Source: Novakomyces olei
Taxonomy: Eukaryota
Assembly: GCA_016906335.1 (NCBI GenBank)
Contig: JADEYG010000005.1
Coordinates: 62,001 to 126,000, forward strand
Direction: 5' to 3'
Length of the DNA stretch: 64,000 nucleotides
Shown here: positions 5,901-33,150 of the stretch, one piece after another
Layout of the letters: every line of letters starts with the position of its first letter
Numbering within the stretch: position 1 is the stretch's first letter
Made by a program: the position numbers and the translations under genes
The notes under the pieces: model-generated
Databases searched by the model: none
What the model saw: only the letters and a program-made list of their open reading frames with translations
Told to the model about the DNA's origin: nothing

Positions 5901-7740
5901 TCACAATCTAGCCTGAGCGAGGCTCAGCTTTGCGTCTTCTGCAATTAGCTCTGCGGCACGTTCGCCGATGGCTAAAACAGCAACCATAGGATTAATCGTC
6001 ACCATGTCGGGAAAAACGCCAGCATCAGCAATCCTCAGGTTCCTAATGCCGCGTACTTTGAGCTGCGGATCTACCACAGCCTTTGGATCGCGGGCCAGAT
6101 TGCCCATCTTTGTCGTTCCTGCTGGGTGGTAGACGGTGTGAGCAACACGTCTCCCGTACTCTGAAAGATCTTCGTCCGTTTGCACATTTGGTCCCGGAGC
6201 AACTTCGCGCTTGATCCATTCCTTGAAAGGAGACTGTTGCGCGATCTTGCGGGCGGCCTTTAGCCCCGCTACAATAGTGGCAGCATCGTAGCCCTCCGGG
6301 TCTGTAAAGTACCGGAAATCCAAAGCCGGCTTCACACTGGCATCGCTGGACACAAGGTACAATCGGCCGCGAGAACGAGGCCGCGGGATATTGGGGGTCA
6401 TACAAAAAGCATTAATGACCTCATCGTACCCCAGTCGGCTCGTATTCAACGTGAAAGGGATCTGATAACAGTGCATCATGAGATCAGCTGCCTGACCATC
6501 AAACCCAGCAGCATCTGCCGGCTCTCGGCGCAAGAAAATCCCAGCATCAGAGTCCATTGTTGTTTGGTTTGGGGGTACTGGTTTATTTAGTTCCCACAAG
6601 ATAATACTCTCCGGATGGTCCAGCAGGTTTTCCCCGACACCAGGAACATTCTTCACTACGGGAATGCCGAGGCTGTTGAGCTGCTCAGCCGGACCCAATC
6701 CTGAGAGCAGCAAAAGACGTGGGGTATCGATTGCACCAGCGCATAGTATAGTTTCCGCCTTGGCCGAGAGTAAGTGCTGCTCGCCAGATTTTAGGACGAC
6801 ATTTACACCCGTCAAAGCGTCGCCCTCAGAGTTGAAGCAGAGCTTGGAAACCCAGGCGTTGGTCAAAATAGTCAGATTAGGCCGGCTTTCCTCGCCACGA
6901 AGAATTGGGTGAATATAGGCGACACTAGCACTGCTGCGACGTCCGTCATCAGGGTTATATGACACGTTGAAGAAACCGACTCCCTGAGTCAGCTCTCCGT
7001 GCTCCCGAATCTCGTTGTTGAAATTATCGATAATTGGGATTTTCATAGCAGTAGAACACGCCTGAATCCAGTCTTTGCACAATTGGTTTCGGTGGCGCGC
7101 GTGAACGGGCTGAATTGTATTGCGCAATTGGTCAATTAGTCGGGTAAAAGTGGCAAAGTCCCAGCCTTTACAGCCTTTTGCCACCCAATTGCGGCAGTCG
7201 TACTCGAAGGGTCGGAAACTGATCAGTGTATTATGGCTCGAACAGCCGCCCAGCACTTTTGCACGCGAATGGCGAATATGCGAGTTTCCTTTACCGTTAA
7301 CACTTGCACTTGTGGATAGAGAAACAGTTTAATTTTATCACATTATTTTGACCCATTTTTTGACCCATTTTTTGACCCATTTTTTGACCCATTTTTGGCC
7401 CATTTTTGGGCTGCGTTATTTAAGGATCCCTCAATTGCATACGAAAATGAACGGCCCATTGGATTCGGGTTACAATCTTTTTAATTCTCGACTCACCATA
7501 AGGCTGCTCCACAGTGGGGTAGTCGTAATCGAGCTCGCCGCCCAAAAGACCAAGCCATTCCCTCAAATTTAAAACTTTATCGTCCATAAAATCGCTCGGT
7601 CCACCCTCGATTACGAGCACCCGCTTTTCCGGCAGGTACTGCGCCAGGCGCGCTGCAGTCACACATCCCGCCGTTCCACCGCCCACAATTATATAATCAT
7701 AATAATTATTGCTGCCCGTCGGAAGATGATTTGTAGTCAT
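5901..7740 (-). CDS. codA: Choline oxidase (GMC oxidoreductase), 2 exons (intron 7289-7496), C-terminal PTS1-like ARL
   Basis: YDYIIVGGGTAG Rossmann motif; AKVLGGCSSHN (flavinylation His as in Arthrobacter choline oxidase); GENLLDHPE; TVYHPAGT and TINP active-site His/Asn; divergent from BADH. Confidence 0.9.
7347..7410. repeat. 12-bp tandem repeat (TTTTTGACCCAT), about 4 copies plus degenerate copies, in the choline oxidase intron
   Basis: Directly visible in the sequence. Confidence 0.9.
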
Positions 7741-9073
7741 TACGCTCGGCAGAGGTTAGACAGCGGCTTAAACCAACCCGACTTGATTGAGCAAAAAGAT
7801 TTACAAAACAATGGTTTCGAAAAGCAAGAGCTTTGGTTTTATTTTTTTATTTTGATATTTATTTTTTATTTTATTTTTTTACTTTTTTTCTTTTTCTTTT
7901 CTTTTTTTTCTTTTCTTTTTCTTTTCCTCGAAAGACTCAGAAAAGTGTCGATACGTTTGTGCAAAGAAAAGATTTAAAGCCGAATGGAAGGAACGGCAGT
8001 TTATAAAGCACTTGTGACGGCATAGAATACCGGTAGGAACAGTAACGATTAAAAGAATACTCGCCTCCTTATCTGTCTGACTCGCAAGTAATCAGGCGCA
8101 AATTTCTATAGCGCTGTGCGTGTTATGTTATTGGCGCATTGCCCTGCTGCGTTAGTTTGGCGTTACCAAATTTGTCTTACTTTATCTGTTGTCTATGTAT
8201 CCCTCCCAATACTATGCACTGCCCTTATCAGCGAGCGGTGCGTGGTAAAAAGGGCGTAAAAATGGCATTACATTCGCAGGTTTCACTAATCTCATGCCAA
8301 ACGTGGCCCAGTTCGATCGTCGACTGTTGAGTGGGATTACCGATTGCCGGCTCGCGCTGCGGAGGGTGCTCTCCGGTCCAACCAAACAAAATTCCGACCA
8401 ACGATCAATTTCGATAAGCGTCATGTCGATCGTTGAAAGGGCTTAATTATGGTTTGTCGGCGCTGTATACGTGCCTCTAAGAGTTAAAGCGGCCATTAAT
8501 GCTTGGCCACTGCCTATATTCGGCAATTTTGCTACCTGCTGCTATACTTTATGTGACCTGCTCACAATAGGCGAGCTAATTTAAAATAAAACAAAGGTCA
8601 ATAAATAGGCAAAATAAAATACTTCCTTCTTGCAACTACTGACCGCCCTATTGACCGTAATATCGGCCACACTATCGAACTCGGCTTGTCTCTGTTTGCT
8701 ATAGTGTATCAGATCAGCGGCCATTCTCCGTAGCGCCATAGCTCAATCATTGAAAAACTCGAATCATGTATATTCCAACGTACTTTCAGTATAGAACCAG
8801 AGATTGAAGGGTTCACAAGTAGCACAGACTCACAAGTAACACAGAATACTATCTAATTAATTCCTATACTGTCGCGACAGGCTGTATCGCTTACAAAGAT
8901 ACGACAATCAGAGCCCACAATCCCGACGAATGGTCTCAGATCTGGTTCGTTCTATGATTGCAGACCATTGTACGTCGGCAACAATTTAACGGGATCGGCT
9001 ACAGTTTGTTTCTACAATTATCTTGTTTGCTGAGCTTTAGCCATTCGAATTGAGTGGGTGAGTGATTCTGGCC

Positions 9074-10760
9074 ATGTCTGCCGACAAGTCTTTCCCCGAA
9101 CGAGGGCTCTATTATGACGGCCATGTTCAGTCAGCCTCCTCGGGCCGAACGTTTCAGTCAATTAACCCTGCCGATGCAACGATTCTGGCTGATATTCAGA
9201 TAGCCGCAGAGTCAGATATCGATGCTGCTGTTTCATCGGCTGAAAGGGCGTTCCCTACCTGGTCTCAAACACCAGCGATTGAACGTGCTCGAGTATTACA
9301 AAAAGCAGCTTTTATTTTGCGCCAACGCAACGATGAAATTGCACGAGTTGAAACTTTGGATTCTGGCAAAGCGTTTTCAGAAACAGCTGCTGTTGACGTT
9401 GCTACAGGTGCCGATGTGCTCGAATACTATGCAAATTTTATTGGCGGCGGCGGGTTAAATGGTGAAAATATACAGTTGCGCAAGGACGTTTGGGCATACA
9501 CTGTCAAGGCACCGCTCGGTGTTTGCGCCGGAATCGGCGCATGGAACTATCCCATCCAAATGTAGGAGACTTTGTTTGTCGTGAGCGTTCAATGTGTTGT
9601 TTTATACCAGTGTGCTCGCCACTTGTACATTTGTTTTTACATTTATTATTGGCTTTATTTTTTATTTTTTCGTCTCTTTGTCTTTTATAATCCTTTTTGA
9701 ATTGTGTTACATGCCAGTATTGCTGTTTGCATCTCTAACAATAAGCGCTTTATGGAAATCGGCAGCTTGCTTAGCGGCGGGCAATACGATGGTGTACAAA
9801 CCCAGCGAGTTTACTCCTCTCCACGGCCAAACTTTGGCCGAGATTTATACTGAGGCAGGATTACCGGCAGGAGCCTTCAACGTGGTACATGGACCAGGTG
9901 CAGTCGGAGCCTACCTGACGACTCACCCTGGTATTGCAAAAGTATCCTTTACCGGCCAAGTCTCGACGGGTAAGAAAGTAGCAGGGTCGGCCACGTCCAG
10001 CATGAAATACGTCACAATGGAACTCGGAGGCAAGAGCCCACTCATCGTTTGTCCTGATGCTGATTTGGAGACTGCCGTCGATGGAGCAATGATGGCAAAT
10101 TTCTATAGCTCAGGGCAAGTGTGCACAAACGGCACACGTGTTTTCGTCCCACGGCCAATGAAAGCAAGATTTGAACGGTGTCTGCTTGACAAAATTGGTC
10201 ACGTCAGACCGGGTCCATTATTTGACGAAAAGACAAATTTTGGTCCGCTTAGTTCAGCGGCTCACAGGGACAAAGTGGTCGAGTATATTTCACACGGCAT
10301 TTCGGTTGATAATGCTCTGCTTCTGTGCGGCGGACTGGGAAAGCCCAAAGTTCCCGCTGATTTGGAAGCCGGGTACTGGGTTAAGCCAACCGTTTTCACA
10401 GACTGCACTGATTCAATGCGTATTGTAAAAGAGGAGATATTTGGACCTGTCATGTGCGTTTTGTACTATGACACGGTGGAGGAAGCAGTAAGACGCGCAA
10501 ATGCCACTGAGCTAGGGCTAGCGGCCGGAGTTTTTACTAAAGATTTGAATTTGGCGCACAAGGTTATCAATCAACTTGAGGCTGGTATAACCTGGATAAA
10601 TACGTGGGGGGATAGTCCTGCAGAAATGGCTGTAGGAGGCTGGAAGAACAGTGGATTGGGTGTCGAGAACGGTCGGCGGGGGATAGAAGCTTGGCTGCAG
10701 AACAAAAGTACGCTTGTTGATATGAGCGGGTCTGTTGCAACAGTATTTGCAAAGCTTTGA
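9074..10760 (+). CDS. Betaine aldehyde dehydrogenase (ALDH9/BetB-like), 2 exons (intron 9562-9745), C-terminal PTS1 AKL
   Basis: [48 protein letters not shown] (catalytic Cys), [16 protein letters not shown]. Confidence 0.92.
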
Positions 10761-11436
10761 TATTTCTTTGTACTTGAAGGAAGTGAAAATAGCAGTTTTT
10801 GGGTTTTTACCTGTCCACAATTACAAATCAATCGATATCTTTCTGCTAGCAGAACTTTTCTGTTGCTATGTTTATATGCTTTGAATGGTTTCAATAGCAG
10901 TCTAGTACAAAGATAGTCGAGTGAAGTATTAAAGACTTGAAATAAACTTGAGAAATCATGAAACTATGAAATTATTGCATGGCTCGATTGGCATTGTCGT
11001 TTTAGTTAATTGTCAAGCACCCTTTTAAACTTAGTTGGCATCATTATCGTCGCCATCATAAACCTTTGAACCTGTGCGTAAAAAGGGTCTGCCTACTCCT
11101 GACCCCCCTTCTAGGTACAGGCCGAGCTCGCGAGTGATACGAGAAATATTTAATTATATTTGAGTAATACCTAGCTAACCCTAATGGCGATGCTAATGGC
11201 GATGGAATTTGGCGAGGTCAGAGCCATAATACTACGCTCTCATAAAGCCTTAATCCTTAGCGTGGGCTCCTTTTGACTCTACATATCGTCGTCCCGATTT
11301 CTGAGCAATCATTTTTTCACTACGAACGCACACGACTAAATTCAATCTGATTTAAGAGGCAAAGTGCTAGAATAAATCCATCTCACAACAAAGTAAAACA
11401 TAAAGAAGAAATACTTTTTACAAGTTTTTCTATCGC

Positions 11437-13447
11437 TCAAACTTTTGATTCGTCTCTTATCTTTCCATTTTGTGCCAAAGAAGTCTGCACGAAACCCTCT
11501 TCCCCCCGAACAGGTTGCTGATCAATTGCAGCATTTTTCCGTGGACCGATGTAATATTTATTTGCACCCGCAATCCACCAAATAAACGCAAACAGCCCAA
11601 CTCCAGCCAAAACCACAACCGCATAATTCATATTTTCCTTTGTTACCGGCATATACGTAGGGAACAGGAAAATTACAGTAACAAAACTAGTCCAAAGAAC
11701 AGCCCACAAATTAATCCAGAAAGAAAAGGGCCCAAGGTTCCACTGACCCGGTCGGTGCCCGAGCTTTTTACCCCAAATCATCCGTCCTGCGATCGGAATA
11801 CAATAACTCCAGTCTAGTGCAATCGCACATACATTGAAAATAGCAGAAATAGCGATATAAGAGCCGAAATCAATAAACCCTAGCAAAATACAGCAAACGG
11901 CCACCAGCCAAACTCCCGTGATTGGAGTTCCAGAAAAAGGGGCAACTTTTGTCCAAAAAGAAGAGAATGGAAGTGCCTCGTCTCGAGCAAAAGCAAAAGC
12001 TGTACGGCCGTTGGCTTGCATGGCAGTAATTCCGGTAAAGTTCAGGATAATAAAAGCGAAAACGGTAAAAGCGAGACCTCCGCTTTTGCCCAAGACGTTG
12101 TAAAAGATCTGTGCTACTGGTTGGCCGACGACGGAGCTGACAATATCCTCTGGGTTGCCCATCACAAATACAAGGACAATGTTAAACACCCAACCCAGCA
12201 AATACGTCAGCAACAAAGCAGAGCAAATGGCCCACGGGGCCCGTGTCTCTGCCTTTTCAATCTCCTCTGCAATATGAGCAGTGGCATCGTAATCCGTCAT
12301 GCACCAGGCAACTGAGAGAAAGCCAAACAAGAAAGAGAACCCAGGTGGATTCCATCCGCTGCTTGGTTCCACGTGAGTAAAAACGTATGACGTAGCGTGT
12401 GGCGTGTCGCACCGGACAAGCAAAGCTATTATAGCAGCAAAGACCACAATAATATGAAAAATTGCGTAGAATCTTGTAATGCGATCGAGCCAGCCGGTGC
12501 TCAACGAGTTGACGGATGCGTGAAATATAATAATGGCCGCGAATACTCCGACAGTTTGAAAATTGTTTGGCGTATAAGTGAAGTCACTACCCATGGACAC
12601 GGCAGCCAGCAGCATCTGCGCAGCTCCAAAGTCTGTCGATGCAACCCCGGCAATTTGGCCTGTCAAAGAGAGTTAGTAACTTCATGTAGGACTGGAATAT
12701 TGGATTAAGCCTTGATTTTTGGACGTCGGCAAGCAGAAGTCGAGCAAGAATAAAAAATAAATAAGTAAATAAATAAGTAAATAAGTAAATAAATAAATTA
12801 CCCAAAAAATTTAGCCAGCCGCAGACCCACGATACGATGGGCACATATGGTTTTGGAATTACTTCTCCACACACAAAGTAAAGCCCACCAGAAGTCGGGT
12901 ACGACGAAACCAGCTCGGCCACGGAAAGCGCGATGCACATGCACCCGAATCCTCCAATGAGCCACGCCCAAACAATACACGCTGCTCCGCCCGCATCTAG
13001 CGGGTACAAAAATGTTGTCGCAACTGTAGCATAAAGACCCGAAATCGAAAAGGCAAATGAAAACGTAGACAGCATTGAAAACTCGCGTTTGAACACCTGT
13101 GCATTTAGCCGACGCAATGATAACCAGAAATTGAATAACCCCGAATGTCGTGCGTCTTTGAGCGGGAAACAAAAACTACTGTACAAAGGATGGTAAACGG
13201 CAATGTAAATTAAAATTAAATAAATAAATAAAATAAAGGCACAAAGCAAAGACGCCAACGAACGACAGGATTGTGGCAGTATAGTGCTTACCGGCTTGTA
13301 GCCTAACTCGGCGAGCATGCGGTCCTCATTTGAAAGCTCCTGGAGTCCCGGTGCTTCGTTGATGGACGATTCCTTTGCACCAGACGATTCGCCCACACGC
13401 ACCCATTCCGCCGATTTGCCGTTTGCATCCGTCGAGCGAATACTCAT
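11437..13447 (-). CDS. APC-superfamily amino acid/choline (ACT: Uga4/Hnm1/Tpo5-like) permease, 3 exons
   Basis: LAELGYKP|VFKREFS, SVAELVSSYPTSGGLY, MTDYDATAHIAEE, RTAFAFARDEALPFS, NMNYA; about 12 hydrophobic segments. Confidence 0.88.
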
Positions 13448-14817
13448 TGTGTATATACAGATTACTTTTCGCGCTGTCTCTGCTCAACACTGTGCTCGAG
13501 TAACAGGTACGATCTCGAAGACTTTAGAGATCTTTGCAAGGCTGGGGAAGCCTTATAAATTGGCCTGCTCATTATTGTATGAGAGATAAACAATCAGATA
13601 TCATTTCCAGACGGAAAAAAGGCTGATATGACATCAAGTATAGTCGATCATAATTACGTTTATTGAGCAGCTATTCGTTCGGAATATGAGGGGTTTCCTG
13701 CGTTTTGATTAGTCCATTACCCACGGACGGGCCTTAACGGGTAAGCTTTGGCGCTGAGGACGCGATAAGAATATAAGCCTGGTTGCCCGCAACTGCTGTG
13801 CGACTTGACAGAGCACTAAGCCTTGGTTCCAAGTAACGCAGATGCAATAATTAAAAGGTCTAGTTATTGCATAATTTATTCATCCCACGCACAATTGCCG
13901 ACCCGGCAATATATAATAACTGAAAATATTGAAGTAATGCTATAGGCACTCGGTACCCTGGGCCTTATCGTGCCTTGGGCTAGAATTCCGAGAGAGCCGA
14001 AGAGGGTCCAAGGGCAGAAGCCTCGGATCTATGTCTCTTGATTGCCGCAGATACCGGTTGCATTTGTGGGTTGTAGACGTTGCAGATTGCCGGTTCTAGA
14101 CCATCGTATTCGGTATAGCGCGAGCATCCGCGCCAAGGTGAGACTTTTGTTCCATCCTTTTGGCGTGCTAGATAGAGTCTTGGGAGCAGCCGGGACTTGC
14201 GTACTACCCCGCTTTTCTTCAATTTTCTTGACCCTATATATTGGTAACTATAATTTTTTTGGAAAATGTACTTTTCTCGATTGTACGGATGAATTGCCAA
14301 GCTGCATGAAGAGCATGGCTGCCTATAGTGGGTGCAAAGATGTCATTTTAGAAATCCCCTTATCTTAGTTTAATTATACTTGCATCTAGACTGGAAAAGC
14401 GGCATTTGAGTGTGCAACATTGGTCAGCAAAAGCATACGCGAATGGTGTTAACCAATCATTGCATACCAATTGCTCGTTTACGTTCCCCTCAAAAGCCAT
14501 GTCACGAAAAAAGTGCAAGTATTTTCCATATTACCAGTGTCGCGAGCCAGCAACCATTCTTTCCTTAAACATAATATGCTTGAACAATCGTCATATCAAA
14601 TGGGAACGGATGCTCTACTGCGGCAAATATCAATGGCCTTAAATTGCTGATTTCTGGCAAACCTACTAGCCTTGGCTATCGTGAAACTGTACTTTTGCAC
14701 TATAGTGATATGCGTTTGTTTAAATATAACAGCTCTGCCTAGAGCCGACCGAATAAAAATAAAACCGCTTCATGTCTAAATACGTCTAAAACTGATTATT
14801 GCTGTGCATCACAATAC

Positions 14818-15950
14818 TCATTCCTCGATAATCTCCCGGTTGGAGCCAGCGATCCATTCTTCCTGCAAAGCGAAAAACTCCTTGATACGTCCCACGTTGG
14901 TCTTGTTTCCGGCAGCATGTTGCGCTTCAAGCTCTTCAAGCATGAGTTTGAGCCGGCTCTGTAAAACTTCAACTCTGTATTTGGCCCACTGATAGTATAA
15001 CTCAGAATGCTCAGTGATTGGCCGAATTGTAGTGAGGACTGAAGAGTCGGGAATAAGCGGGTCCTTGGGACGGAACGAGGTGATCATTGTAATCCGCTCG
15101 TTCCCTCCGATTGATCCGAGTGCTTGATGGAGAACGTGTCTGCCCTGCAGAATCACTGCGCTTCCCTAAAGAAAGAATTAGCTTTTATACATTTACGTTT
15201 CCAATTTGGCATTTATGTCTCCAATTTGGCATTATCTTACCATTTTAGGTCCTCGGATCTTTAATATATCTCCCGTGCCTGTTTGCAGTGCAGTTTCACC
15301 TCCCGTCATCTCCGAGGTATCGCTCATCATGACGACACAAACGAACGGATAGCTGTCATGGTGCCATTTGGTGACTGGAACATCGTCCGGGGACTGGTTG
15401 GCCTGTTTTGCAAAGACATTCTTCTGCGAATCTTCCTTTACAGAGATATTCAGATTGCCAATTTCAAGATCCATTATGGGAACGAGCTCAATGCCAGCAA
15501 TTTTCGAAACAATGGACAAAAGCTTGGGGTCATTCCATGCTTGGTACATGAATTGCGCGTACCTAAACAGATTTGTCAGTATGCAAGTTGCCTCTGAGCA
15601 GTCGCTTGTGCTTACTTTGGACTATGCGCCCGAATCTGGCAGCTGGCAAACGACGAACTGTACATGCAGTTGCCGAAGACTTCATCGGTAAAAAACTCGT
15701 TCCTCATAATCTGAATAGCATCGTCCGTGAACAGCTCAAACGGCTCAGAAACAGCGACTGGTGATATGCCCGAGTCTTCGGGAAAGCCCAAGTCTTTAAA
15801 GGTGGTTACCTTGGGGTACTCGTTGAACGACAGGTGCTGCTCGGCATTGAACTTTGAGGCGGCAGCATCGTCAAGGCTCTTGTTGCTGCGAGAGATGATA
15901 GGGTTAAATTTTAACGCGTCAAGCGGAGAAGGAACCACAACTTCACCCAT
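14818..15950 (-). CDS. Uncharacterised Fe(II)/2OG dioxygenase-fold protein (paralogue A), 3 exons (introns 15563-15615, 15166-15240)
   Basis: WHHDSYPFVCVVMMSD (HxD), GGETAL, LQGRHVLHQAL (distal His), ERITMITSFRP (2OG-binding Arg). Clean GT-AG introns restore the frame. Confidence 0.8.
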
Positions 15951-16126
15951 TCTGCTTTTCCAGGTTTTGCTTTTATATTTGCTCTTTTATATTTGGTCTT
16001 TTATGTTTCTCTTTTGACAAAGGCCTCGGCGCAAACACGTACAATACCACTCTTACACCGTCAGTGCCACAAGACCAACACTCTCTTTGCCTCCTCGTCC
16101 CCGCACCCTTCAATTTATAGTGGTAA

Positions 16127-16407
16127 AATTCCGACCCGCGTCGAGTCCTCCTTATTTTGCGACGCTTAATCAGCCTTTGTGTGCGCCGAAACGCTCTGCT
16201 CCTTTAGGAAAGATAACTAGCTGAAAGCCTGGTTCTCTTGTTCCGTAGATCCTGCAAAGTAATGCAGCAGCCAGAATTCCGACGTTATCCTAACGCTGTC
16301 TTAACTTAATCTAGTGGTACATTATCACACAAGTCTAGCCAGCAAGACTAGACGTATATATCCCACCTGTCGGATTAAACTAATCCTGTCACTCTAGAAA
16401 TTCCGAC
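16127..16407. promoter_or_regulatory. Three AATTCCGAC motifs (16127, 16275, 16399), putative Zn2Cys6 half-sites, in the 2OG-A/PhyH divergent promoter
   Basis: Exact 9-mer three times in 280 bp; a fourth copy lies at 8390-8398 in the codA/BADH promoter. Confidence 0.55.
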
Positions 16408-16705
16408 ACATAATGAAACCCGACATGGATGGATAAGGATCGAAATGGGACTTGGCAGCCCGGGATTCGTTTACCGTTCAAGTAATAGAGATTCCGAGAT
16501 ATGCCTCTAATGGATCGATGACATGGCGCTCAGCGTTGTTAAAACGGACTCAGGAGTACCATTTAATTAAAGAGTACCATTTGATTGGGACTTTTCCGAG
16601 ACAAAGCAGCCGTCTGGCCCACGAGCGTAAAGCAGTTCAGTATAAATAGCACTGCTTGTTTGTGGACACTGACGCGAGTTTCTGTATTCCTTTCCGAGAT
16701 CGGGT

Positions 16706-17774
16706 ATGGGATCTCCAGTGGCAAGGCCGCGACCGGCGCCTATTGACCCGTCCTACAAGCCAACTGCGTCAATTGCAAAGATCCCAGCGAGCTCAGACAT
16801 TTCAGATATTCTGGAGGTCATTGAGCGGGATGGCGGTGTTATTCTGACAGATTTTGTTGCCGAACCCGACTTGGCGGCCGTCGACGAAGAGCTCGATAGT
16901 TACAGCAGCAAGCAGGTCCGTACGACAGACAAGAGCGCACTGCATATAATCCCAAAAGAAACGCTTGCTATTCCCGGTCTCGTCGGCAAGTCCGACACAA
17001 TGGCCCATATCTGCAGCGAAAACCCTGTACTGGAGCAGCTGCGCACATACATTTTGGAGGACAAGTTTGACGTTAACCGCGAATCGTACATTGAGAAGAA
17101 CACGATTGATCCAATTTTGAGCATTAGTATTACTCTGCACATCGGGTATGGCGCTCCTCGCCAAGTCTTGCACCGCGACGATAACACGCATGGCACTAGA
17201 CACAGCGAAGAGTTTAATCTAAGGAAAGCCGGTCAGTTTGCCTGCTTGATTGCCGGCTCCAAGACCACTAGAGAAAATGGTGCTACTATGTTTATTCCGG
17301 GCTCGCATAAATGGGACGACAAACGGGTGCCCCGCTTGGACGAAGTTTGCTTCGCAGGTATGTTTTATTTACAACGTTTAGACGACTAAATGTTTCCCCA
17401 ATCAAAACATGGAAAAACGCAAATTACAGCTAGATATTCAAGCTCATTATATTGGTTTTGATTTTATTTCTAACCCGTTTATAGAAATGGAAAAAGGATC
17501 AGCACTAATTTTCCTGGCCTCCTGCTACCATGGGGGAGGCCACAACGCCGTACCCGACGAAACCCGTAAAATTCACGGACTTTTCTTTGTTCGGGGTACA
17601 ATGCGGACCGAGGAGAACCAGTTTTTGGCTATACCCAGAAGCAAAGTTTTGAAAATGAACGACAAAATGCTCACGCTTCTGGGCTACAAGAAGCCTACAA
17701 CTGTTTTGGGCATTGTTGAAAACGAAGATCCTGCTCAAGATCTGCAGGGAGTCTTTGCACGCAATGCCGCTTAA
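16706..17774 (+). CDS. Phytanoyl-CoA dioxygenase (PhyH)-family 2OG dioxygenase, 2 exons (intron 17358-17484)
   Basis: ERDGGVIL, QVLHRDD (HxD), ENGATMFIPGSHKW, YHGGGHN, RTEENQFL, LLGY. Confidence 0.88.
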
Positions 17775-18285
17775 ATTTTTGTTGGAGGGATATGATAGAT
17801 GAATTTGTTTAATGTCACTTTGTGCAGAGAGAAAAGTTCCGAATCGTGGTCTCAAATTACAATAGATGGCGTATTATATAAAATCTCAACACGTAATAGA
17901 TTCATGTCGGCAGTAACAATTTCAAAGTACTGTCTGCGGAATTATTGCTACTTTCAAAAGTAGAAATAACAAAAGCACATAGTTACATTTGCATTCAATC
18001 AAGCCTTCAGTCCAAATCATATTCAGGTAAAACCGACCGTTGAAATAATTCTCTCTAAAACTGTCAATTTACAGTCAAACCCCAAGTGCTGATTTTGAAA
18101 ACACAAAGGGTAGACAAAAGAATGTACCAGCGATTCTGAACTTTCCACATTCATGTCCAATTGGCTTAAAATAGCTAGCAAAGAAAACTTGACAGGCACC
18201 CATTTATCTGGTATCTTTAATTTCTTCATTCGCTAACAAAAAGACTAAATTTACAACAAGGTCATTGCTAGAGAGTACACTGTCC

Positions 18286-20217
18286 CTAGGCATCCTCACC
18301 GAAAAATTCCAAATCAAACTCATCAAACCCGGGAGCCAAATCATTTGGAATAGTACGCGCGTAATAATCGCCAGCAGCTTCAGAACCAGCAGCTTCAGAG
18401 CTACTCAATAAAAGCTCAAAAGACGAACAAAAAGACACAGCTTTGGGGTATTTGTCCACCATGGCCTGTAATGACTGGCCACATAGCCCAATACATTCAT
18501 TCATTTCCGCTTTTTTGGGATTCTGTAGAATATTAAAATTCATGCGCACGTAAATCAACGTTGTGCCTGCTAAAAACAAATTACGTGAATGCTGCCAATA
18601 AACCCTAATTTTTCGTGCATCATGTAACTTTTTGTAAAGGCATATTAAATTAATGCAGATATTAATTAGAGCAAGCCATGATGCTGGGTTCGGAGAAGGT
18701 ATTGCCGGTGAAGGTGCGTGCAAAACGCGTAAAAGATTAAGGTAGATAAGGTCAAAGGATTCTACTGGTGTAGTAGCATTTTCATTTGGTATTGCTGGCC
18801 TTTGAGAATGCCACCACTCAATTTTCGCATTAAAATTAGTGGCCCAAGCTTGAACATTAAAATCTCCATAGAGCTGAGGAGTTTTCATATACAATACTTG
18901 GTGGGCTTCAGACTGGAGTTGACGGCATCTGAACCAATGAAGAGCACACTTCTTTTTTTGCGGTAGTAAATCCTGCATATCTAATATTCCATCTTCGCTT
19001 ATATATGCATCGTTTACGGTAGACGGAAACTAGAATTTAGACAAAGAAACTAAAATTGAAGAAGTTGAGCCAAATAAATAAACAAATATAATATAACATC
19101 GCGAATAAAATAAAAGAAGGGTTTTATGAAAACGGGTGTGGTCAAAGCCCAGAGGTTAACAAAACGTACAGGGAATCACTGCTATAATCGACCTTACTTT
19201 TATATCAATAACTTCATCTGGTATGAAAAAAGGCCGTCGAAAAACAACGCATATTGTCCGTTCCATCTCGTAAAGCGTCCAAAATACTCTGCGTCGTCTG
19301 TCAAAGTACAGCACATCTTCATCTCCATCTTCTGCTACTACCTCACGGTGAAGGTCTAATTGAAGGGCTAATCGAGCGCAGAATCCTGTGGCCTGCCACA
19401 TCCCTCCACAATTTGGATGTATAAAGCCATGCTGGCATAGCAAAAGCATACTTTCAAGCCCGTTCAAGTCATCCCCAAAAACTTGAGGCACCACAAACCG
19501 AATAGCCAAGTGAAAATGGTCTTCGGAGCACGAAAAAGGGACTTTAAGGTCCTTTCTATGGCTGATCAAGTAGGCAATCGCAAACACGAGATGTAATTGG
19601 AACAGGTCCTGCCTTAGTTCAATAGAATCTTCGATGTTTGTAGACTCCTGCATATTGTAAACATTACGCACGCGATCCATGAATGTCTGGAACTTGAACA
19701 ATGGAGTTCCAAACTCGGCAAAGTCAAAATACGCGGTAACAAGAGACATTGCCGTATCAAAAGTCGGAAGGCTGAACTTGGTCTGCCGCTCTATCGGTAA
19801 CGGATCGTTTGTAGGTATGCCTACTGCACCAATCAGAGCTCTTCGAATTTCATCAGACACGCTAACTTCCGATGCTTCCTGGCTCGATTTACCACTCTTT
19901 AGCGGGACGGCTTTGCTGGGTTTGCTGCCGTCATATTGAGCAACTTTTTGCTCAAGGTCGTAAAGGTAGCTTTAGCGTTAGTTAGCCAAGTAAACAGCAA
20001 TAGTGTTTGCCAACCTTCGAGATATTTCACGGCCCGTGATACTGTCAATGGACAAGCAATCGGCACCTGCCAATTCACAGTTTGTGCACGCCTAATCGCA
20101 ATTCAATATCAATATGCACATCAGACAAAATCTTACGGGGAGTCTTTGATCGCACCGCTTTTTCCTTTTCCGACATCGTGAACAGGAAGTCAAGTTTCCG
20201 CGCGCGACAGAGGTCAT
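18286..20217 (-). CDS. Zn2Cys6 binuclear-cluster transcription factor, Ppr1/UaY-like, 4 exons; the zinc cluster is split by an intron and missed by the ORF track
   Basis: From ATG 20217: MTSVARGNLTSCSRCRKRKKRCDQRLP|ACTNCELAGADC...TGREISR|SYLYDLEQKV (C-x2-C-x6-C-x6-C-x2-C-x6-C plus a Ppr1-like linker). Fungal TF domain RLALQLDLHRE...RRRVFWTLYEMER. Confidence 0.88.
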
Positions 20218-20667
20218 TTACAAGGAACCTACATGGATCCGTCAATGGCCGCAGTTGGTCCTGTTTACCTAATATTGCGCACAGGTACATTACTATGAAT
20301 GCCCGATAATATAAATTAGGGTTAGTTAGGATTATTGTGTTTTCTGTTTAGCGGTCTTATCAGTTTCTTCATACATATTACATTTGCATCATATTTTTGT
20401 TAGTTTGATGAAAACATGGTTAACCGTCGGGATTGGACACCACCCGATTTACCCTAATCTGACTGAAAGAAATGCTGCTTTGGATCATCTAGTTGGATCA
20501 TCTAGTCTTGTACGAATCCGAGTTTTGATTATAAAGTTTTAATATAATGTATTCTATCATATGCATCCTAAAGCAGCCGAAACCCCGGTCTATTCAATTC
20601 AAAAAATGGTGCTACCATGTTCATTCCGGTTCAGACTTGCATGAAAAGAGTATTCTTACCAGTCAAT

Positions 20668-22105
20668 TCACAAATGTGCCCTTAATTCACGCATGGCATC
20701 TTTTAGCCGCGTGGTCTTGTCTATTGTCTGCTCCTGGCCCGGTTTCTTCCATGCCCATAATTTACAAAGCTCTGGGTCTAATTTACCCTCCAAGCGGTCG
20801 CATACAAAAGAACCGATGAGTGGTAGAAACTTCCATCCGTGCAAAGACCCGCAAGTAGCTGCAAAGAGTCCTTTAACGGCAGGATGAGGAGCAATTACGA
20901 AATTGCCATTAGGCGATGTGGCATCCCTGGCATTATTAGCACAGGCATTGATAAAAGTGTAATAGTTTAGAAGGGTCGCTCTCTTTTGTCGCTCTCTTTT
21001 GTCGCTATTTACGTTTCCCCTTATTTTCCTTTACTTACCAGCAAAGTTTTGTCGCAACAAAAGGACGTTCAGCGAGGGAGGGCATCATTTCGTGCAGATC
21101 TTTGCGTAAAGCGTTTTGAATGTCCATCGGAACTTGATTCTCCTTGGATTTGCTGAGAATTTCAGGCAAAGATAAGCGAGTCTGAAGCCCCCTTTGCTGC
21201 TCCGAGAAGCGAGGATGCGGGACGCTGACCGTGTTACAGAACCCGGGCCATCTTCGCAAGATCTTGACGCGTCCCTTGTGAGGGGGAAAGAGGTTAAACC
21301 CGGTACTCAGGTTTGTGGTAATAGACATCTTGGACCACTTTTTTTCTTCTGCCTCGGTGACGGGGATAAAGGCTACGGGAATAGCATAGACTTGCGTCTC
21401 TGACTCGAGATCGAGCAGCCTTGTTGACCAGGCTCCCGCAGCGACAATCACGAGCTGAGCATAAAGCACGGAACCGGATTCCAATTCAACCCCCGTAACA
21501 GCTTGGCCATCCGGCGTATAAATCAGTCTCTGCACTGCCTTTCCCGTGACAAAATGAATCGTTTTGTGGGCGAGGCATTTGTTATAATAAACACGGATAC
21601 ACTCCTCCGCGTCGGCCATAGAGGCAGACAAATTGCAGTACCCAATGTTCCACTGAGCCGGCCGGCCCAGCTCGGCCTCAGTAGGGCACTGTGCGTCTTG
21701 TCCGTGGATTCTAGTGTAAATCTCCCGGCGGCCCGGGCTCAAAGCGACACGCTGATTTGCGCGTTTAGCGTTCTCCAGTCCCGTCGTCCATTCGTCCTCA
21801 GCGTCCCCACGTGTGCCATCGTATACGAATGACATGCCCTTGTTATACACATGCTTAGACAGCTCTGGGTCCTGGGCAAAGGCCTGCTGGGCTCTTTTGG
21901 CCAGCTCAGTATAAGTCTTATCCGCATAGTCGGCTCTGACGCACCGATTCAAATCCGTACTTGCTCCGTCCGAGACCGGCGGAGTCTGACGGTCAACGAC
22001 GGTAATTCTCGTGCTCGGGTACCGCTCAGCGAGTTCAAGTGCCGTAGAGAGCCCGAAAACGCCGGCACCAACGACAATAACCGATTCTGGTGGACTCACG
22101 GCCAT
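20668..22105 (-). CDS. FAD-dependent oxidase of the sarcosine oxidase / L-pipecolate oxidase / fructosyl-amino acid oxidase family, 2 exons, C-terminal PTS1-like AHL
   Basis: VIVVGAGVFGLSTA, GASTDLNRCVRADY, VAAGAWS, KLCW (covalent-FAD Cys position). Exon 2 (about 20926-20668) reads DATSPNGNFVIAPHP...CGSLHGWKFLP...RELRAHL-stop. Confidence 0.85.
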
Positions 22106-23053
22106 ACCTCCTTCTAACGCTGAGCCAATCGGTACCAAACCCCAATCTTATTGCAGCCAAGCGGCGACGAGCATTTATATAGACGCTAAAAGTATGCACA
22201 GGCGGAGGACGTGTGCCGCCAATCAACGGTCCTCGGCGACGTCCTGTCGGCGATCGCCGTCGGAGGCCGACTCGTGCCACTAATGATAGAAAATGTAGTA
22301 CTAGTTCATTATTATATCAGAGAAAATCACGTAATGTGTTTTATTCAAGGTTTACAGTATTGGCAAGAGGGATTCAGTTTAAAAATTTATAATGCTGAAC
22401 CTGTCACTTTGCTTGAAGGCACTTTTTACACTATCGGCACTATCGGCACTCGGCTACGCTTTAGCGTTGCGATTGCCGGTTCGGCGATCAAAAGTTCCTT
22501 ATCCGCTTGCTTTGTCAAACGTGCACGTATTACATAATCTGCAGTTGGAGAGATAAAGTATGGCTGTAAACAAGTATTTTTTAATTTAGTGGTTTTACTG
22601 TAATTTAGTGCTTTAATAATATTTAGTGCGTTTAATAATATTCGGTGCTTTTACTGTAATTTAGTGAGGCTCTTACCTATTATTCAGTGCTTTTACTATA
22701 GAAAAATAACCATATAATCCAATTTTCTATCGCGATAAGAGCTCTGCACGTGTGCCTTATCTACGAACCTTCAAACGGCGGTGAATGGAGGCGCGACTGG
22801 CCAAAGTCTAATGATATCATACGGTACGCAATAGCAGCAATTACTATCGCGATAACGTGACTCTTTGAAAATTGCGTTATACATGATTTGCTGCAAGTGC
22901 GATGCGCGGGGCCTACAGCGGACTTCGGCGATCGGCGACAACTGGACGCGATACCGTTATCGACAAAACTTTATCAACGACAGAACCTGAAAACTAGGGT
23001 CGAGCGGCTTTATATAAACACATGAAAACTGACAAACTCACAAAGTAGACACG

Positions 23054-25022
23054 ATGGAGGATACCATGAAGACTCTGACGACCCAGCAAATCTCTGACGA
23101 AGGTCAAAAGATCGCTGGCAATGTGGAAACAGTCTACACCACTGAAGACGACATCAAGAAAAAGAGCGGTGGCGATGCGGCTTTGCGTTTCTTGCAAGAA
23201 AACGAAGGCACTTTTACCTTTACGGTTGAAGAGGAAAAGAAGGTTTTGCGTAAAATAGACTGGCACGTTATGCCTTTGCTTTGCATGCTTTACGGATTGC
23301 AGTACTTGGGTACGTGACTACCGCTTGGCAATTTAATCCTAACTTTTTTCAAAGACAAGATATCTCTAAGTTATACGACCGTCATGGGATTGGAGGAGTA
23401 CGCGCACTTGGCCGGGCAGGACTACAGTTGGCTTTCTTCCCTGTTTTATTTTGGGTACCTCGGATTTGTTTTCCCTGCCAGTATGATCTTGCAAAGGTTT
23501 CCCATTGCCAAAGTGCTCGGGAGCTTTCTGCTTGTGTGGGGGAGCTTGCTGCTTTTACATGCTGCTGCATCCAATTTTGGTGGGTTCGCCGCCTTGAGGT
23601 CTGTTCATACCCAAAAACGCGATATGTGACGAGTTTACTGACTTTTGTAAAGGATTCTGTTGGGCATATTTGAGAGCGCAATTACTCCAGGATTCATGTA
23701 CGCAGTTCTGCTTGGGACAACTGACTAATATTAGGCTGATTACTTCGCAATGGTACCGGGCTTATGAACAGACGACTCGCACTGGCATATGGTTTTCTAT
23801 GAACGGTCTTGCACAGATGGTCGGCGCTGTTGTGGGTAAGTTTTGGCTTTCTTTCATATATTTCGGATTGAAAAGTCTGACAGATTTAGCGTATGCTATT
23901 GCGACTGGGTCTCAAAACAACAATTTTACGGCTATTCCAGCGTTCAAATTCATCTTTATTTATCTCGGTGGTCTGACAGTTATACTCGGCTCAGTGTTTC
24001 TGTTACTGTTCCCCGACTCACCGGCAACCGCAAAATTTTTAACCAAGGAAGAAAAGATGATTGCTCTTGAGCGTATCAGAGACAATAACCAAGGAATTAA
24101 GAATGAAGAATTCAAGCGGTACCAGTTTATCGAAGCTTTACGAGATCCTTTGACCTGGCTTTACTTCTTTTCTTCGTTCATTCAGAATATTGTATGAAGA
24201 CTTTACTGCATAAAACTTTGTGCTAACTTTACACAGCCAAATGGTGTTATGAGTAACTTTACAAGTCTAATCATTGATGGCAAGATTATGATTCATATTC
24301 ACTTTGCTAACGACTTTCAGGGTTCGGATTCTCCGATACAATGTCTCTTCTGCTGCAATTGCCCGGTGGTTTCATTGAACTGACGACCTACATGTTTTTC
24401 GCTTGGCTTGCTGATCGAACCCGCCAAAAGAATCTGTGGGCAATTCTCTCTCTTCTCCCTACTATCGCCGGATTTGCAATCATGGTACCAGTCCATGGTC
24501 CTCATGATCGCGGAGTACAGCTTTTCGCGTATTACCTCACGTATACGTCGTCTGCAATTTGGCTGGTCATGCTCAGTTTGATTTCTACTAATACTGCCGG
24601 ATACACAAAGAAGGGCACAGTGAGCGCTATTAACTTGTAAGTGATTTGAGCTTCAATTGTTAAACTTTTTTTTTTCAATTCGTCTCGATTACTAATTTGA
24701 TACAGGATTGGATATTGTCTCGGAAATATTGTTGGACCACATTTGATCTCGGCTGACGACGCACCTACTTACATTACAGCAAAGACGGTGGTATGTTAAA
24801 CGGCAATTTTGTTATATTGTGAACATATCTAACTTTCAGGTTCTGGTCTTCCTTATCGTGACTGTTGTGTTTCAAGGTGTAATATGGCTTTACTGCTTCT
24901 TGGTAAACCAGCAGAAAAGACGCAGGCTGGCTGAGGCGGGAGATAGCTATACACGACAGGCAAATCAGGAATTTCTTGATTTGACGGACAGAGAAAACTT
25001 GGAATTTCTGTACGTCCTTTGA
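23054..25022 (+). CDS. MFS transporter, allantoate permease (Dal5) family, about 9 exons, one probable GC-AG intron
   Basis: RKIDWHVMP, QYL|DK, YSWLSSLFYFGYL, QWYRAYEQTTR, PDSPATAKFL, NTAGYTKK, GNIVGP, DLTDRENLEFLY. Confidence 0.88.
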
Positions 25023-32805: not shown

Positions 32806-33150
32806 CTGTCGACTTTCCCGGCCAAACAAAAGCCGTCAAACACGTTGAAAGAACATGGATAAAGAAAAGTATAAAGTTCTGACAGAATGCCTTAAAAGGA
32901 GACAGCAGGGCGGACGAGACCGCCGTGCAAAATATAAGGGGCGGGGATTAGTTGTGTAAATGTAGTTTGTCGTACATTAATAATCACCATTGCCCACAAT
33001 ATTTTAACCATATTGCAAATATCGTCTCCCCACGTGACGGACACAGCCAGCCAATCTCGGCGGCGTCGCTTTACCTCGATTAGATACCGCCAAGTGGGTA
33101 CAGACCAACGTTAGCTATACCCCTCGTTTTGTCGTACACGGCACCCAACC

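What the first reader, a model, noticed from the sequence alone, without database searches (positions are those of the whole stretch)
5901..25022. Extended choline/betaine catabolic cluster with candidate enzymes for the steps after glycine betaine
Seen: choline oxidase and BADH (head-to-head) are followed directly by an ACT-family permease, an uncharacterised 2OG dioxygenase, a PhyH dioxygenase, a Ppr1-like Zn2Cys6 regulator, a sarcosine-oxidase-family flavoprotein and a Dal5-type transporter. Established: the choline oxidase/BADH pair is known as a cluster in filamentous ascomycetes and yields glycine betaine; Fe/2OG enzymes can hydroxylate N-methyl or alpha carbons; MSOX-family enzymes demethylate sarcosine to glycine. 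To my knowledge the fungal step that degrades betaine itself is not well defined. Inference: this block may encode uptake, choline -> betaine, 2OG-dependent demethylation (or C-N cleavage) to dimethylglycine/sarcosine, then glycine, as a nitrogen-source pathway.
Basis: partly seen in the sequence, partly recalled or inferred. Interest (0 to 1): 0.85.

Follow-up and report, generated by a model that had tools for sequence, protein, structure and literature searches.

The report
Choline genes beside an unknown dioxygenase pair
A fungal choline-to-betaine gene pair lies next to a separately conserved pair of iron/2-oxoglutarate oxygenases of unknown substrate, so the idea that the block is one betaine-breakdown pathway is possible but not supported by gene order in other fungi.

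Summary
Choline oxidase and betaine aldehyde dehydrogenase (BADH) are clear orthologues, head-to-head. The 'uncharacterised 2OG dioxygenase' (DiOx) matches no Pfam model. A model of a 60%-identical homologue has the 2OG-oxygenase fold, closest to free-amino-acid hydroxylases/halogenases (HalB, Z 15.3). The PhyH gene is closest to the swainsonine enzymes SwnH1/SwnH2 (E 1.5e-62).

New result: DiOx and PhyH form a conserved head-to-head pair.
- Consecutive locus tags in 6 genomes.
- Directly seen in one metagenome contig, L018, followed there by a YAT amino-acid permease whose best window match lies at 29624-31857.

Choline oxidase does not travel with the pair:
- Different contig lengths in 3 of 3 genomes where both could be compared.
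- No choline oxidase, BADH, sarcosine-oxidase-family or Dal5-family match in any of the 80 related loci kept.

Best reading: two modules lie side by side. One is a known choline-to-betaine module. The other is an undescribed amine or amino-acid oxidation module, substrate unknown. Betaine demethylation is not excluded (about 0.1). I could test neither expression nor enzyme activity.

The parts
5901..7740 (-). Choline oxidase (codA orthologue), one intron
   Evidence: GMC_oxred_N and GMC_oxred_C. Best solved match is choline oxidase 2jbv at E 9.8e-101. 84% identical to a Penicillium protein; a Talaromyces hit is named CodA. Start codon read.
7741..9073 (.). Divergent intergenic region shared by choline oxidase and BADH (1333 bp)
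   Evidence: Gene starts, gap. One CGG-N10-CCG site at 8360, not significant.
9074..10760 (+). Betaine aldehyde dehydrogenase
   Evidence: Aldedh domain. Best solved match is BADH 8skf at E 1.5e-127. Best NCBIfam models are the BADH equivalogs NF009725 (6.4e-148) and TIGR01804.
11437..13447 (-). ACT-family (amino acid/choline transporter) permease
   Evidence: AA_permease_2. TIGR00907 at E 4.1e-135. No relative in any of the 80 DiOx-related loci.
14818..15950 (-). Fe(II)/2OG dioxygenase with no Pfam family (DiOx), 3 exons, 334 aa
   Evidence: Introns at 15615-15563 and 15240-15166; 198 of 332 positions identical to P0001. H, D and H are invariant in 26 sequences. The model of P0001 has a DSBH fold; HalB 7u6i gives Z 15.3. 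It falls in the clade whose members pair with PhyH.
15951..16705 (.). 755-bp divergent promoter region shared by DiOx and PhyH
   Evidence: Head-to-head arrangement. L018 has the same arrangement.
16706..17774 (+). PhyH-family dioxygenase, close relative of SwnH1/SwnH2
   Evidence: PF05721. SwnH1 9osa at E 1.5e-62 and SwnH2 9otb at 1.5e-59; the next solved match is 5.3e-13. Orthologues are 65-71% identical in many fungi.
18286..20217 (-). Zn2Cys6 / Fungal_trans regulator
   Evidence: PF04082. Six-cysteine pattern read across an intron. No relative in the 80 loci. L018 has a Fungal_trans_2 regulator instead.
20668..22105 (-). MSOX / fructosyl-amine-oxidase-family flavoprotein
   Evidence: DAO domain. 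Solved-structure ranking. TIGR01377 at E 4.4e-16 but only 58.6 bits against a cutoff of 479.65. Atlas neighbours are named N-methyltryptophan oxidase, peroxisomal sarcosine oxidase and fructosyl amino acid oxidase.
23054..25022 (+). ACS-family (Dal5-type) MFS transporter
   Evidence: MFS_1. TIGR00893 on two exons, E 3.1e-24 and 9.4e-16. First exon read.
26745..28690 (+).
   Evidence: AA_permease_2. TIGR00907 at E 1.4e-18 on one exon. Only 24% identical to the first ACT permease. Ends are ORF limits, not a gene model.
29624..31857 (-). YAT-family amino-acid permease, best window match to the permease that abuts the DiOx-PhyH pair elsewhere
   Evidence: AA_permease; TIGR00913. The L018 permease and the permease part of the Fonsecaea nubica model both match best here, at 48-71% and 58% identity. 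Ends are ORF limits.
33115..34158 (+). Second, distant DiOx-family gene (single exon)
   Evidence: tblastn with P0001 and P0003 gives 33-35% identity. Long branch in the tree. Ends are ORF limits.

Best explanation
The block is two modules side by side, not one conserved pathway.

Module A (5901-10760, possibly with the ACT permease to 13447) is the known fungal choline -> betaine aldehyde -> glycine betaine route.

Module B starts at 14818. Its core is a conserved head-to-head pair of unrelated Fe(II)/2OG oxygenases. One is DiOx, a Pfam-less enzyme with a fold like free-amino-acid hydroxylases. The other is a SwnH1/2-like PhyH enzyme. In other fungi the pair sits next to a YAT amino-acid permease.

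In this genome a Zn2Cys6 regulator, an MSOX-family amine oxidase, an ACS-family MFS and a second ACT permease lie between the pair and that permease. Module B probably therefore runs to about 31857.

Inferred mechanism (not shown):
1. A small nitrogen compound is imported, either an amino acid or a cyclic or N-alkylated amine.
2. The two oxygenases, transcribed from a shared 755-bp promoter, hydroxylate or desaturate it at carbons near the nitrogen.
3. The flavoprotein then oxidises a secondary-amine C-N bond, giving assimilable nitrogen.

The substrate is unknown. The gene identities and the conserved pairing are shown by tool results; the order of reactions is inference.
For: **Module A**
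- Choline oxidase and BADH are assigned by large margins.
- The same two genes are neighbours in A. fumigatus by locus tag (PMC4551469, passages).

**Pair conservation**
- DiOx and PhyH have consecutive locus tags in 6 genomes: A1O5_00280/00279, PV04_04656/04657, Z520_05858/05857, H2200_000808/000807, LTS17_001734/001735 and Z519_00289/00288.
- The pair is seen directly, head-to-head, in L018.
- In the 28-row tree, 12 of the 16 rows of the window's DiOx clade (the window included) have such evidence. The clade has 97/93 support.

**Permease link**
- L018 has a YAT permease directly after DiOx.
- The Fonsecaea nubica gene model AYO20_02498 is a PhyH plus AA_permease chimera.
- Both permeases match best at window 29624-31857.

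**Both oxygenases look catalytically competent**
- The HxD...H residues are invariant in DiOx; in the PhyH set the HxD and an Arg are invariant and the distal His is nearly so.

**Chemistry of relatives**
- SwnH1 and SwnH2 hydroxylate a cyclic tertiary amine and also desaturate it (10.1101/2024.09.26.615303, abstract and section 10).
- The DiOx model is closest to HalB, HalD and BesD. The Atlas points to HalD-bearing clusters.
Against: - Synteny rests partly on a proxy. Contig length stands in for contig identity, and the length shown is the longest contig of a 90% cluster.
- Only one orthologous locus (L018) could be read with its flanks.
- For 4 of the 16 clade rows no PhyH partner appeared. 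Only the best 120 of 345 PhyH hits were listed, so this means unknown, not absent.
- In Coleophoma the only listed PhyH relative (54% identical) has a different contig length from DiOx.
- The HalB match is not clearly separated: ranks 2-5 have Z 13.9-14.4 against 15.3. None of the 6 homologues matched Pfam HalD.
- Close physical packing here (gaps of 450-1722 bp from 5901 to 31857) would also fit one co-regulated island that includes choline oxidase and BADH.
- No expression data exist for this organism.
Confidence: 0.55

Rival explanations
1. The block is one extended pathway: uptake, choline -> betaine, then 2OG-dependent N-demethylation or C-N cleavage of betaine by DiOx and/or PhyH, then sarcosine -> glycine by the MSOX-family enzyme.
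For: - All the genes are tightly packed, with gaps of 450-1370 bp across 5901-25022.
- The nearest characterised relatives of the PhyH enzyme oxidise carbon next to a tertiary amine nitrogen to an iminium. That is formally the chemistry needed for dealkylation (10.1101/2024.09.26.615303 section 10).
- The flavoprotein belongs to the sarcosine-oxidase superfamily.
- No fungal enzyme for this step turned up in print.
- None of the 61 window ORF pieces carries a Rieske, BHMT-type or aminomethyltransferase domain, so no known betaine demethylase type competes in this window.
Against: - Linkage of choline oxidase with the pair is not conserved. Contig lengths differ in 3 of 3 comparable genomes, and 0 of 80 loci hold choline oxidase or BADH.
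- The best choline oxidase hits are Penicillium, Aspergillus and Onygenales. The best 120 PhyH hits hold no Penicillium or Onygenales and only Aspergillus at 55-57%. The closest DiOx hits from these genera are 46-48% identical and fall outside the pair clade.
- The flavoprotein is nearer to fructosyl-amine oxidases and FmpA than to sarcosine oxidase.
- The conserved partner of the pair is an amino-acid permease, not a choline-pathway gene.
Confidence: 0.12
2. Same two-module picture, but with a specific substrate class. Module B catabolises or modifies lysine or a lysine-derived cyclic imino acid such as pipecolate.
For: - The best fold matches of DiOx are enzymes solved with lysine or ornithine: HalB, HalD and a BesD hydroxylase homologue.
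- SwnH1 and SwnH2 act on an indolizidine. The preprint's section titles name SwnA as a lysine 2-aminotransferase (outline only).
- The flavoprotein's Atlas neighbours include 'peroxisomal sarcosine oxidase'. I recall this as the pipecolate oxidase family.
- The only solved relative of the L018 permease is a lysine-specific permease.
Against: Each hint is weak.
- The fold ranking is nearly tied.
- The permease hit is the only solved member of its family at E<=1e-10, so it cannot discriminate between substrates.
- No saccharopine or aminoadipate pathway gene was seen among the 61 ORF pieces.
Confidence: 0.2
3. Module B is a remnant or variant of a swainsonine-like alkaloid (secondary-metabolite) cluster, not a nutrient pathway.
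For: - The PhyH gene is a close SwnH1/2 relative.
[quoted passage not shown] The window has two ACT-family permeases.
Against: - None of the 61 ORF pieces of 110 aa or more across the 64-kb window carries a PKS/NRPS, NmrA-type reductase or aminotransferase domain.
- The PhyH orthologues are widespread and 65-71% identical across classes. That fits a conserved primary or catabolic role better.
Confidence: 0.05
4. The genes are neighbours by chance in a transporter-rich, fast-changing region. Beyond choline oxidase/BADH and the DiOx-PhyH pair there is no functional unit.
For: - The window from 1 to about 47 kb is dense in transporters and oxidative enzymes of many kinds.
- The regulator, flavoprotein and MFS have no relative in any of the 80 loci.
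- No motif is shared by the five promoter regions beyond what shuffled sequence gives.
Against: The regulator, flavoprotein, MFS and second ACT permease lie between the conserved pair and its usual permease partner. That placement is easier to explain by growth of one cluster than by chance.
Confidence: 0.08

Closest known systems
Aspergillus fumigatus codA/badA pair (AFUA_8G04090 / AFUA_8G04080)
   Same: The same two enzymes are adjacent. Window orthologues are 76-84% identical to listed Eurotiomycete and other ascomycete choline oxidases. The best solved BADH match has E 1.5e-127.
   Different: No published extension of this pair to later steps was found. The primary paper (Lambou 2013) is not held, so I could not read it.
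SwnH1 / SwnH2, swainsonine-pathway Fe/2OG dioxygenases (PDB 9osa, 9otb)
   Same: PhyH family. E 1.5e-62 and 1.5e-59 over about 210 residues, far above the next solved relative at 5.3e-13.
   Different: There is no SwnK synthase or SWN reductase in the window. The partner here is an unrelated dioxygenase rather than a second PhyH enzyme.
BesD / HalB / HalD family of free-amino-acid halogenases and hydroxylases (Pfam HalD, PF23169)
   Same: Best fold match for the DiOx model: HalB 7u6i, Z 15.3, rmsd 3.4, 205 residues aligned. Foldseek gives E 3.6e-07 to 3.8e-06. The Atlas lists HalD-bearing clusters at 0.95 and 0.84. DiOx has the HxD triad of a hydroxylase.
   Different: No sequence-level match: 0 of 6 homologues hit PF23169 at E<=1, and there is no solved-structure hit by sequence. 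The family is eukaryotic, with an extra C-terminal helical pair.
MSOX / fructosyl-amine oxidase / N-methyltryptophan oxidase / peroxisomal sarcosine oxidase superfamily
   Same: DAO fold, with family-level matches.
   Different: Only remote from every characterised member: the best is 3.2e-20, and 58.6 bits against a subfamily cutoff of 479.65. Specificity is therefore open.
Bacterial betaine catabolism (GbcAB Rieske oxygenase, DgcAB, SoxBDAG; recalled)
   Different: None of those protein types is in the window. None of the 61 ORF pieces carries a Rieske or aminomethyltransferase-type domain. A 2OG-dependent version would be a different enzyme solution.

Membership tests
Choline oxidase (GMC oxidoreductase, CodA type) | GMC N- and C-terminal domains with an FAD-binding N-terminus | tested here: met
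   PF00732 at 6e-30 and PF05199 at 6.7e-36. The first exon matches FAD/NAD-binding models.
Choline oxidase (GMC oxidoreductase, CodA type) | Closer to proven choline oxidase than to other GMC enzymes | tested here: met
   2jbv at 9.8e-101, against 3.5e-53 for the next different enzyme. Named CodA orthologues are 78-79% identical.
Choline oxidase (GMC oxidoreductase, CodA type) | Oxidises choline | not testable with these tools
   Needs an enzyme assay.
Betaine aldehyde dehydrogenase | Best match to BADH equivalog models and to solved BADHs | tested here: met
   NF009725 at 6.4e-148 (493 bits on a 391-aa piece; whole-protein cutoff 593). The 9 best solved matches are all BADH.
ACT (amino acid/choline transporter) family, TC 2.A.3.4 | Match to the family model TIGR00907 | tested here: met
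   4.1e-135, 451 bits on a 411-aa piece (cutoff 598 for a whole protein). That the model's name '2A0304' stands for TC 2.A.3.4 is recalled.
Fe(II)/2OG oxygenase superfamily (for DiOx) | DSBH fold with HxD...H iron ligands | tested here: met
   The model of the 60%-identical homologue P0001 has pLDDT 84.1. 96 solved chains give Z>=8; I read the top-ranked ones as 2OG oxygenases. H177, D179 and H230 are invariant in 26 sequences. The window has WHHD and GRHVLHQ.
HalD/BesD family (PF23169) | Sequence match to the family profile | tested here: not met
   0 of 6 homologues at E<=1. DiOx is therefore not filed as a member, only as the nearest fold.
HalD/BesD family (PF23169) | Fold closest to family members | tested here: inconclusive
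   HalB ranks first at Z 15.3, but ranks 2-5 are 13.9-14.4.
PhyH family, SwnH1/2 subgroup | PF05721 domain with HxD...H and a 2OG-binding Arg | tested here: met
   PF05721 at 3.7e-14. H153, D155 and R251 are invariant and H230 nearly so in 30 orthologues. That this Arg binds 2OG is recalled.
PhyH family, SwnH1/2 subgroup | Lies in a SWN cluster with the SwnK synthase and the SwnN/SwnR reductases | tested here: not met
   No such domain in any of the 61 ORF pieces of the window. It is a relative of SwnH1/2, not a swainsonine gene.
Monomeric sarcosine oxidase subfamily | Reaches the subfamily model's cutoff, or is nearest to sarcosine oxidase | tested here: not met
   TIGR01377 gives 58.6 bits against a cutoff of 479.65 (370-aa piece). 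Fructosyl-amine oxidases at 3.2e-20 outrank MSOX at 4.7e-08. Superfamily membership holds; sarcosine specificity does not follow.
Monomeric sarcosine oxidase subfamily | Cysteine for covalent flavin before the GHG-type motif (recalled feature) | tested here: inconclusive
   The C-terminal exon reads CGSLHGWKF. The motif is recalled, and no alignment to a solved enzyme was made for this exon.
ACS family MFS (Dal5 type, TC 2.A.1.14) | Match to TIGR00893 | tested here: met
   3.1e-24 and 9.4e-16 on two exons. This is family level only; no substrate can be inferred.
Zn2Cys6 fungal regulator | Six-cysteine binuclear cluster plus a fungal transcription-factor middle domain | tested here: met
   CSRCRKRKKRC and CTNCELAGADC read in one frame on either side of a short stop-containing stretch taken as an intron. 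PF04082 at 3.8e-13. 'Ppr1-like' was not tested.

The most novel reading that the evidence does not exclude
The conserved DiOx-PhyH pair could be a previously unrecognised fungal Fe/2OG route for oxidative dealkylation of betaine-type methylated amines. Here it would have been recruited next to choline oxidase and BADH, so that choline nitrogen is carried through to glycine with the MSOX-family oxidase. That would supply the missing fungal betaine-degrading enzymes.
Probability: 0.1. Interest if true: 0.8.

Novelty: new variant of a known kind. Interest (0 to 1): 0.45.

Why it matters
- The enzymes that fungi use to break down glycine betaine are not defined in the literature I could search. 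A candidate locus would make that question testable.
- Apart from that, the work shows a conserved pairing of two unrelated 2OG oxygenases, usually with an amino-acid permease, across at least three classes of ascomycetes.
- One partner belongs to a family with 1287 cluster representatives at E<=0.001, and none of the six members scanned matches a Pfam model.
- The other partner is the closest non-cluster relative of the swainsonine hydroxylases.
- Finding the substrate would assign a function to a sizeable unannotated family. It may also show where the swainsonine tailoring enzymes came from.

Tried and rejected
- **Whole genome.** None is held for this window, so paralogues and other betaine-pathway genes elsewhere could not be searched.
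- **Earlier scan notes.** Four look-ups returned nothing.
- **Expression.** No RNA holder is listed for 14000-23000, so co-induction could not be examined. DNA contigs of a second run (X2) cover all 30 bins, with 39 of 44 pieces 99% or more alike. This is the same or a nearly identical organism, so it says nothing about conservation of linkage.
- **Shared regulator sites.**
  - I scanned 48 CGG/CCG spacing patterns in five promoter regions.
  - CGG-N11-CGG has 8 of the window's 25 sites in four promoters. CGG-N10-CCG has 3 of 13 in three promoters.
  - After allowing for 48 patterns this is marginal.
  - Shared 8- to 10-mers do not exceed shuffled controls.
  - I rejected this as evidence either way.
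- **Wider DiOx family neighbourhoods.**
  - I scanned 144 ORFs of 140 aa or more within 5.5 kb of DiOx in 26 representative loci. I dropped near-duplicate and short loci and treated L018 separately.
  - The scan gave no PhyH, DAO, GMC, Aldedh or amino-acid permease domain.
  - 9 of the 26 loci have a NatB_MDM20 gene upstream. These loci belong to other branches of the family and say nothing about the window's clade.
- **Complex prediction of DiOx with PhyH.** The job was never accepted because the queue was full. There is no result.
- **Lambou 2013.** The paper could not be read.
- **Pipecolate-hydroxylase literature search.** One search gave nothing relevant to this family.

Full report
**1. 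What is there**

The window is fungal: genes carry short introns, and the best protein matches are ascomycete. I scanned 61 stop-to-stop ORF pieces against Pfam (20, 41). Gene limits refined are:

| Gene | Coordinates | Strand |
|---|---|---|
| Choline oxidase | 7740->5901 | - |
| Betaine aldehyde dehydrogenase (BADH) | 9074..10760 | + |
| ACT-family permease | 13447->11437 | - |
| Pfam-less 2OG dioxygenase (DiOx) | 15950->14818 | - |
| PhyH dioxygenase | 16706..17774 | + |
| Zn2Cys6 regulator | 20217->18286 | - |
| Sarcosine-oxidase-family (MSOX-family) flavoprotein | 22105->20668 | - |
| ACS-family MFS transporter | 23054..25022 | + |

Gaps between neighbouring genes are 450-1370 bp.

**2. 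The choline module is solid**

- The GMC protein matches solved choline oxidase at E 9.8e-101. The next different enzyme scores 3.5e-53.
- Its best 120 database hits are 75-84% identical. Penicillium is highest at 84%, and a Talaromyces hit is named CodA.
- The aldehyde dehydrogenase matches solved BADHs best (E 1.5e-127) and the BADH equivalog models.
- The two genes are head-to-head with 1333 bp between them.
- A. fumigatus has the same neighbours by locus tag (PMC4551469, passages seen). The primary paper on them is not held.
- The next gene is an ACT-family permease (TIGR00907, E 4.1e-135). This fits choline uptake but does not prove it.

**3. The two dioxygenases**

DiOx:
- It has three exons and 334 aa, and is 60% identical (198 of 332 positions) to the Cladophialophora protein P0001.
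- Six homologues gave no Pfam 2OG family at a meaningful E-value. P0001 gave no solved relative by sequence.
- A profile of 26 family members finds 1287 cluster representatives at E<=0.001, of which 857 are at E<=1e-10. The family is sizeable and unmodelled.
- An AlphaFold model of P0001 (pLDDT 84.1) has the double-stranded beta-helix fold. The invariant H177, D179 and H230 fit the iron-binding triad.
- The best structural match is HalB (7u6i: Z 15.3, rmsd 3.4, 205 residues). Ranks 2-5 are close behind at Z 13.9-14.4.
- Foldseek puts HalD, HalB and BesD among the first ten hits. The ESM Atlas lists bacterial clusters carrying Pfam HalD at 0.95 (14% of members) and at 0.84 (100% of members, a lead only).
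- I therefore describe DiOx as resembling free-amino-acid hydroxylases, not as a member of that family.

PhyH:
- It matches SwnH1 and SwnH2 at E 1.5e-62 and 1.5e-59. The next solved relative scores 5.3e-13.
- Those enzymes hydroxylate a bicyclic tertiary amine and also desaturate it to an iminium (10.1101/2024.09.26.615303, abstract and section 10).
- The window holds no swainsonine synthase or reductase.

**4. The new observation: a conserved pair**

I compared the hit lists for DiOx (33 proteins) and PhyH (best 120 of 345).

- The two genes have consecutive locus tags in Cladophialophora psammophila, Phialophora macrospora, Fonsecaea multimorphosa, Cladophialophora chaetospira and Exophiala oligosperma. 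A cluster look-up added C. bantiana.
- I built a tree of 28 family members. I left out 7 short or partial hits: P0011, P0018, P0023, P0024, P0025, P0027 and P0032.
- The tree puts the window's DiOx in a 16-row clade (97/93 support) that holds all these paired genes. 12 of the 16 rows have pairing evidence.
- For the other 4 rows no partner was listed, which is unknown rather than absent.

A scan of metagenome contigs found 199 relatives and kept 80 loci, of which 31 are 10 kb or longer.
- Only L018 carries a close orthologue, at 50-67% identity per exon.
- In L018 the PhyH gene is head-to-head with DiOx, as in the window.
- It is followed by a YAT amino-acid permease and a Fungal_trans_2 regulator.
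- A Fonsecaea nubica gene model is a chimera of the PhyH protein and an amino-acid permease.
- Both permeases find their best window match at 29624-31857, at 48-71% and 58% identity.

So in this genome the regulator, the flavoprotein, the MFS and a second ACT permease sit between the pair and the permease that usually abuts it.

**5. Is the choline module linked to the pair elsewhere?**

Not in what I could see.
- Choline oxidase and the PhyH gene (with DiOx in the first two) have different contig lengths in Aplosporella (1255061 versus 630843), Xylona (1905886 versus 3129946) and Diplodia (380783 versus 212261, PhyH only).
- I ran tblastn with 23 window ORF pieces against the 80 loci. There was no match to choline oxidase, BADH, the ACT permease, the regulator, the flavoprotein or the ACS MFS.
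- The genera with the closest choline oxidases are Penicillium, Aspergillus and Onygenales. The best 120 PhyH hits hold no Penicillium or Onygenales, and only Aspergillus at 55-57%. Their closest DiOx hits are 46-48% identical and fall outside the pair clade.

Limits of this evidence:
- Contig length is a proxy for contig identity.
- The hit lists are truncated.
- Only one orthologous locus was read with its flanks.

**6. The flavoprotein**

- It belongs to the MSOX/fructosyl-amine-oxidase superfamily.
- It is remote from all characterised members: fructosyl-amine oxidase 3.2e-20, FmpA 4.4e-19, monomeric sarcosine oxidase 4.7e-08.
- It scores 58.6 bits against the sarcosine-oxidase subfamily cutoff of 479.65.
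- Atlas neighbours carry several names in this superfamily.
- Sarcosine is possible, but no more likely than another secondary amine.

**7. Reading**

The best-supported picture is two modules side by side.
- Module A is choline -> betaine, which is already known.
- Module B is a conserved two-oxygenase core with an amino-acid permease. Here it is enlarged by a regulator, an amine oxidase and two more transporters.
- The mechanism I commit to at 0.55 is import of a small amine or amino acid, oxidation by the two oxygenases at carbons near the nitrogen, then flavin-dependent C-N oxidation. The steps are inferred from relatives, not shown.
- Hints point weakly to lysine-derived or cyclic substrates: HalB-type fold, SwnH relatives, peroxisomal-sarcosine-oxidase-like neighbours, and a lysine permease as the only solved relative of the partner permease.
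The chemistry is plausible and the question is open in print. However, its one testable prediction available here, conserved linkage, failed.

**8. What could not be done**

- No whole genome is held.
- No RNA run is listed.
- Promoter-motif tests were inconclusive.
- The complex prediction never ran because the queue was full.
- Supplementary tables of the swainsonine papers were not opened. They might list non-cluster SwnH homologues.

Noticed in passing
window 33115-36615: A second, distant member of the DiOx family lies at 33115-34158 (single exon, 33-35% identical to P0001 and P0003). It is divergent from the YAT permease and 301 bp from a phenol-hydroxylase-like FAD monooxygenase at 34460-36615.
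   Followed up: partly
window 1586-4872: Upstream of choline oxidase lie a TauD/TfdA-type 2OG dioxygenase piece (1586-2008, -) and another ACS-family MFS (3988-4872, +). This dioxygenase is not of the gamma-butyrobetaine hydroxylase type: its best solved matches are phenoxypropionate and taurine dioxygenases.
   Followed up: partly
window 11830-12742: Both DNA runs hold a second version of part of the ACT permease gene (406 bases with 53 differences), and word depth there is about double. No such copy is in the window. A diverged paralogue probably lies elsewhere in the genome.
   Followed up: partly
window 11437-13447 and 26745-28690: [quoted passage not shown] The window has two ACT-family permeases near its SwnH-like gene. 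Whether either is a SwnT relative could not be tested.
   Followed up: no
L022, L023, L040, L043, L046, L059, L067, L070, L080: In 9 of 26 representative metagenome loci, a more distant DiOx-family gene sits a few kb downstream of a NatB_MDM20 gene, and several of these loci have a RING-finger gene after it. This is a conserved housekeeping-type position, unlike the window's clade.
   Followed up: partly
window 37428-47427: Further downstream lie a DUF1989 plus polysaccharide-deacetylase gene, a DyP peroxidase, a GH1 glycosidase, a cytosine/purine-type permease and an FMN reductase. The first 47 kb of the window is a dense run of transport and oxidative catabolic genes.
   Followed up: no
window 8360, 16461, 22203, 32587: CGG-N10-CCG sites occur in the choline oxidase-BADH, DiOx-PhyH, flavoprotein-MFS and YAT-paralogue divergent intergenic regions. 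These are 4 of the window's 13 such sites. This is suggestive of a shared Zn2Cys6 site but not significant.
   Followed up: partly
P0424 (Fonsecaea nubica AYO20_02498): This public gene model fuses a PhyH dioxygenase (residues 39-240) with the C-terminal part of an amino-acid permease (381-458). It is probably an annotation merge of two neighbouring genes.
   Followed up: yes
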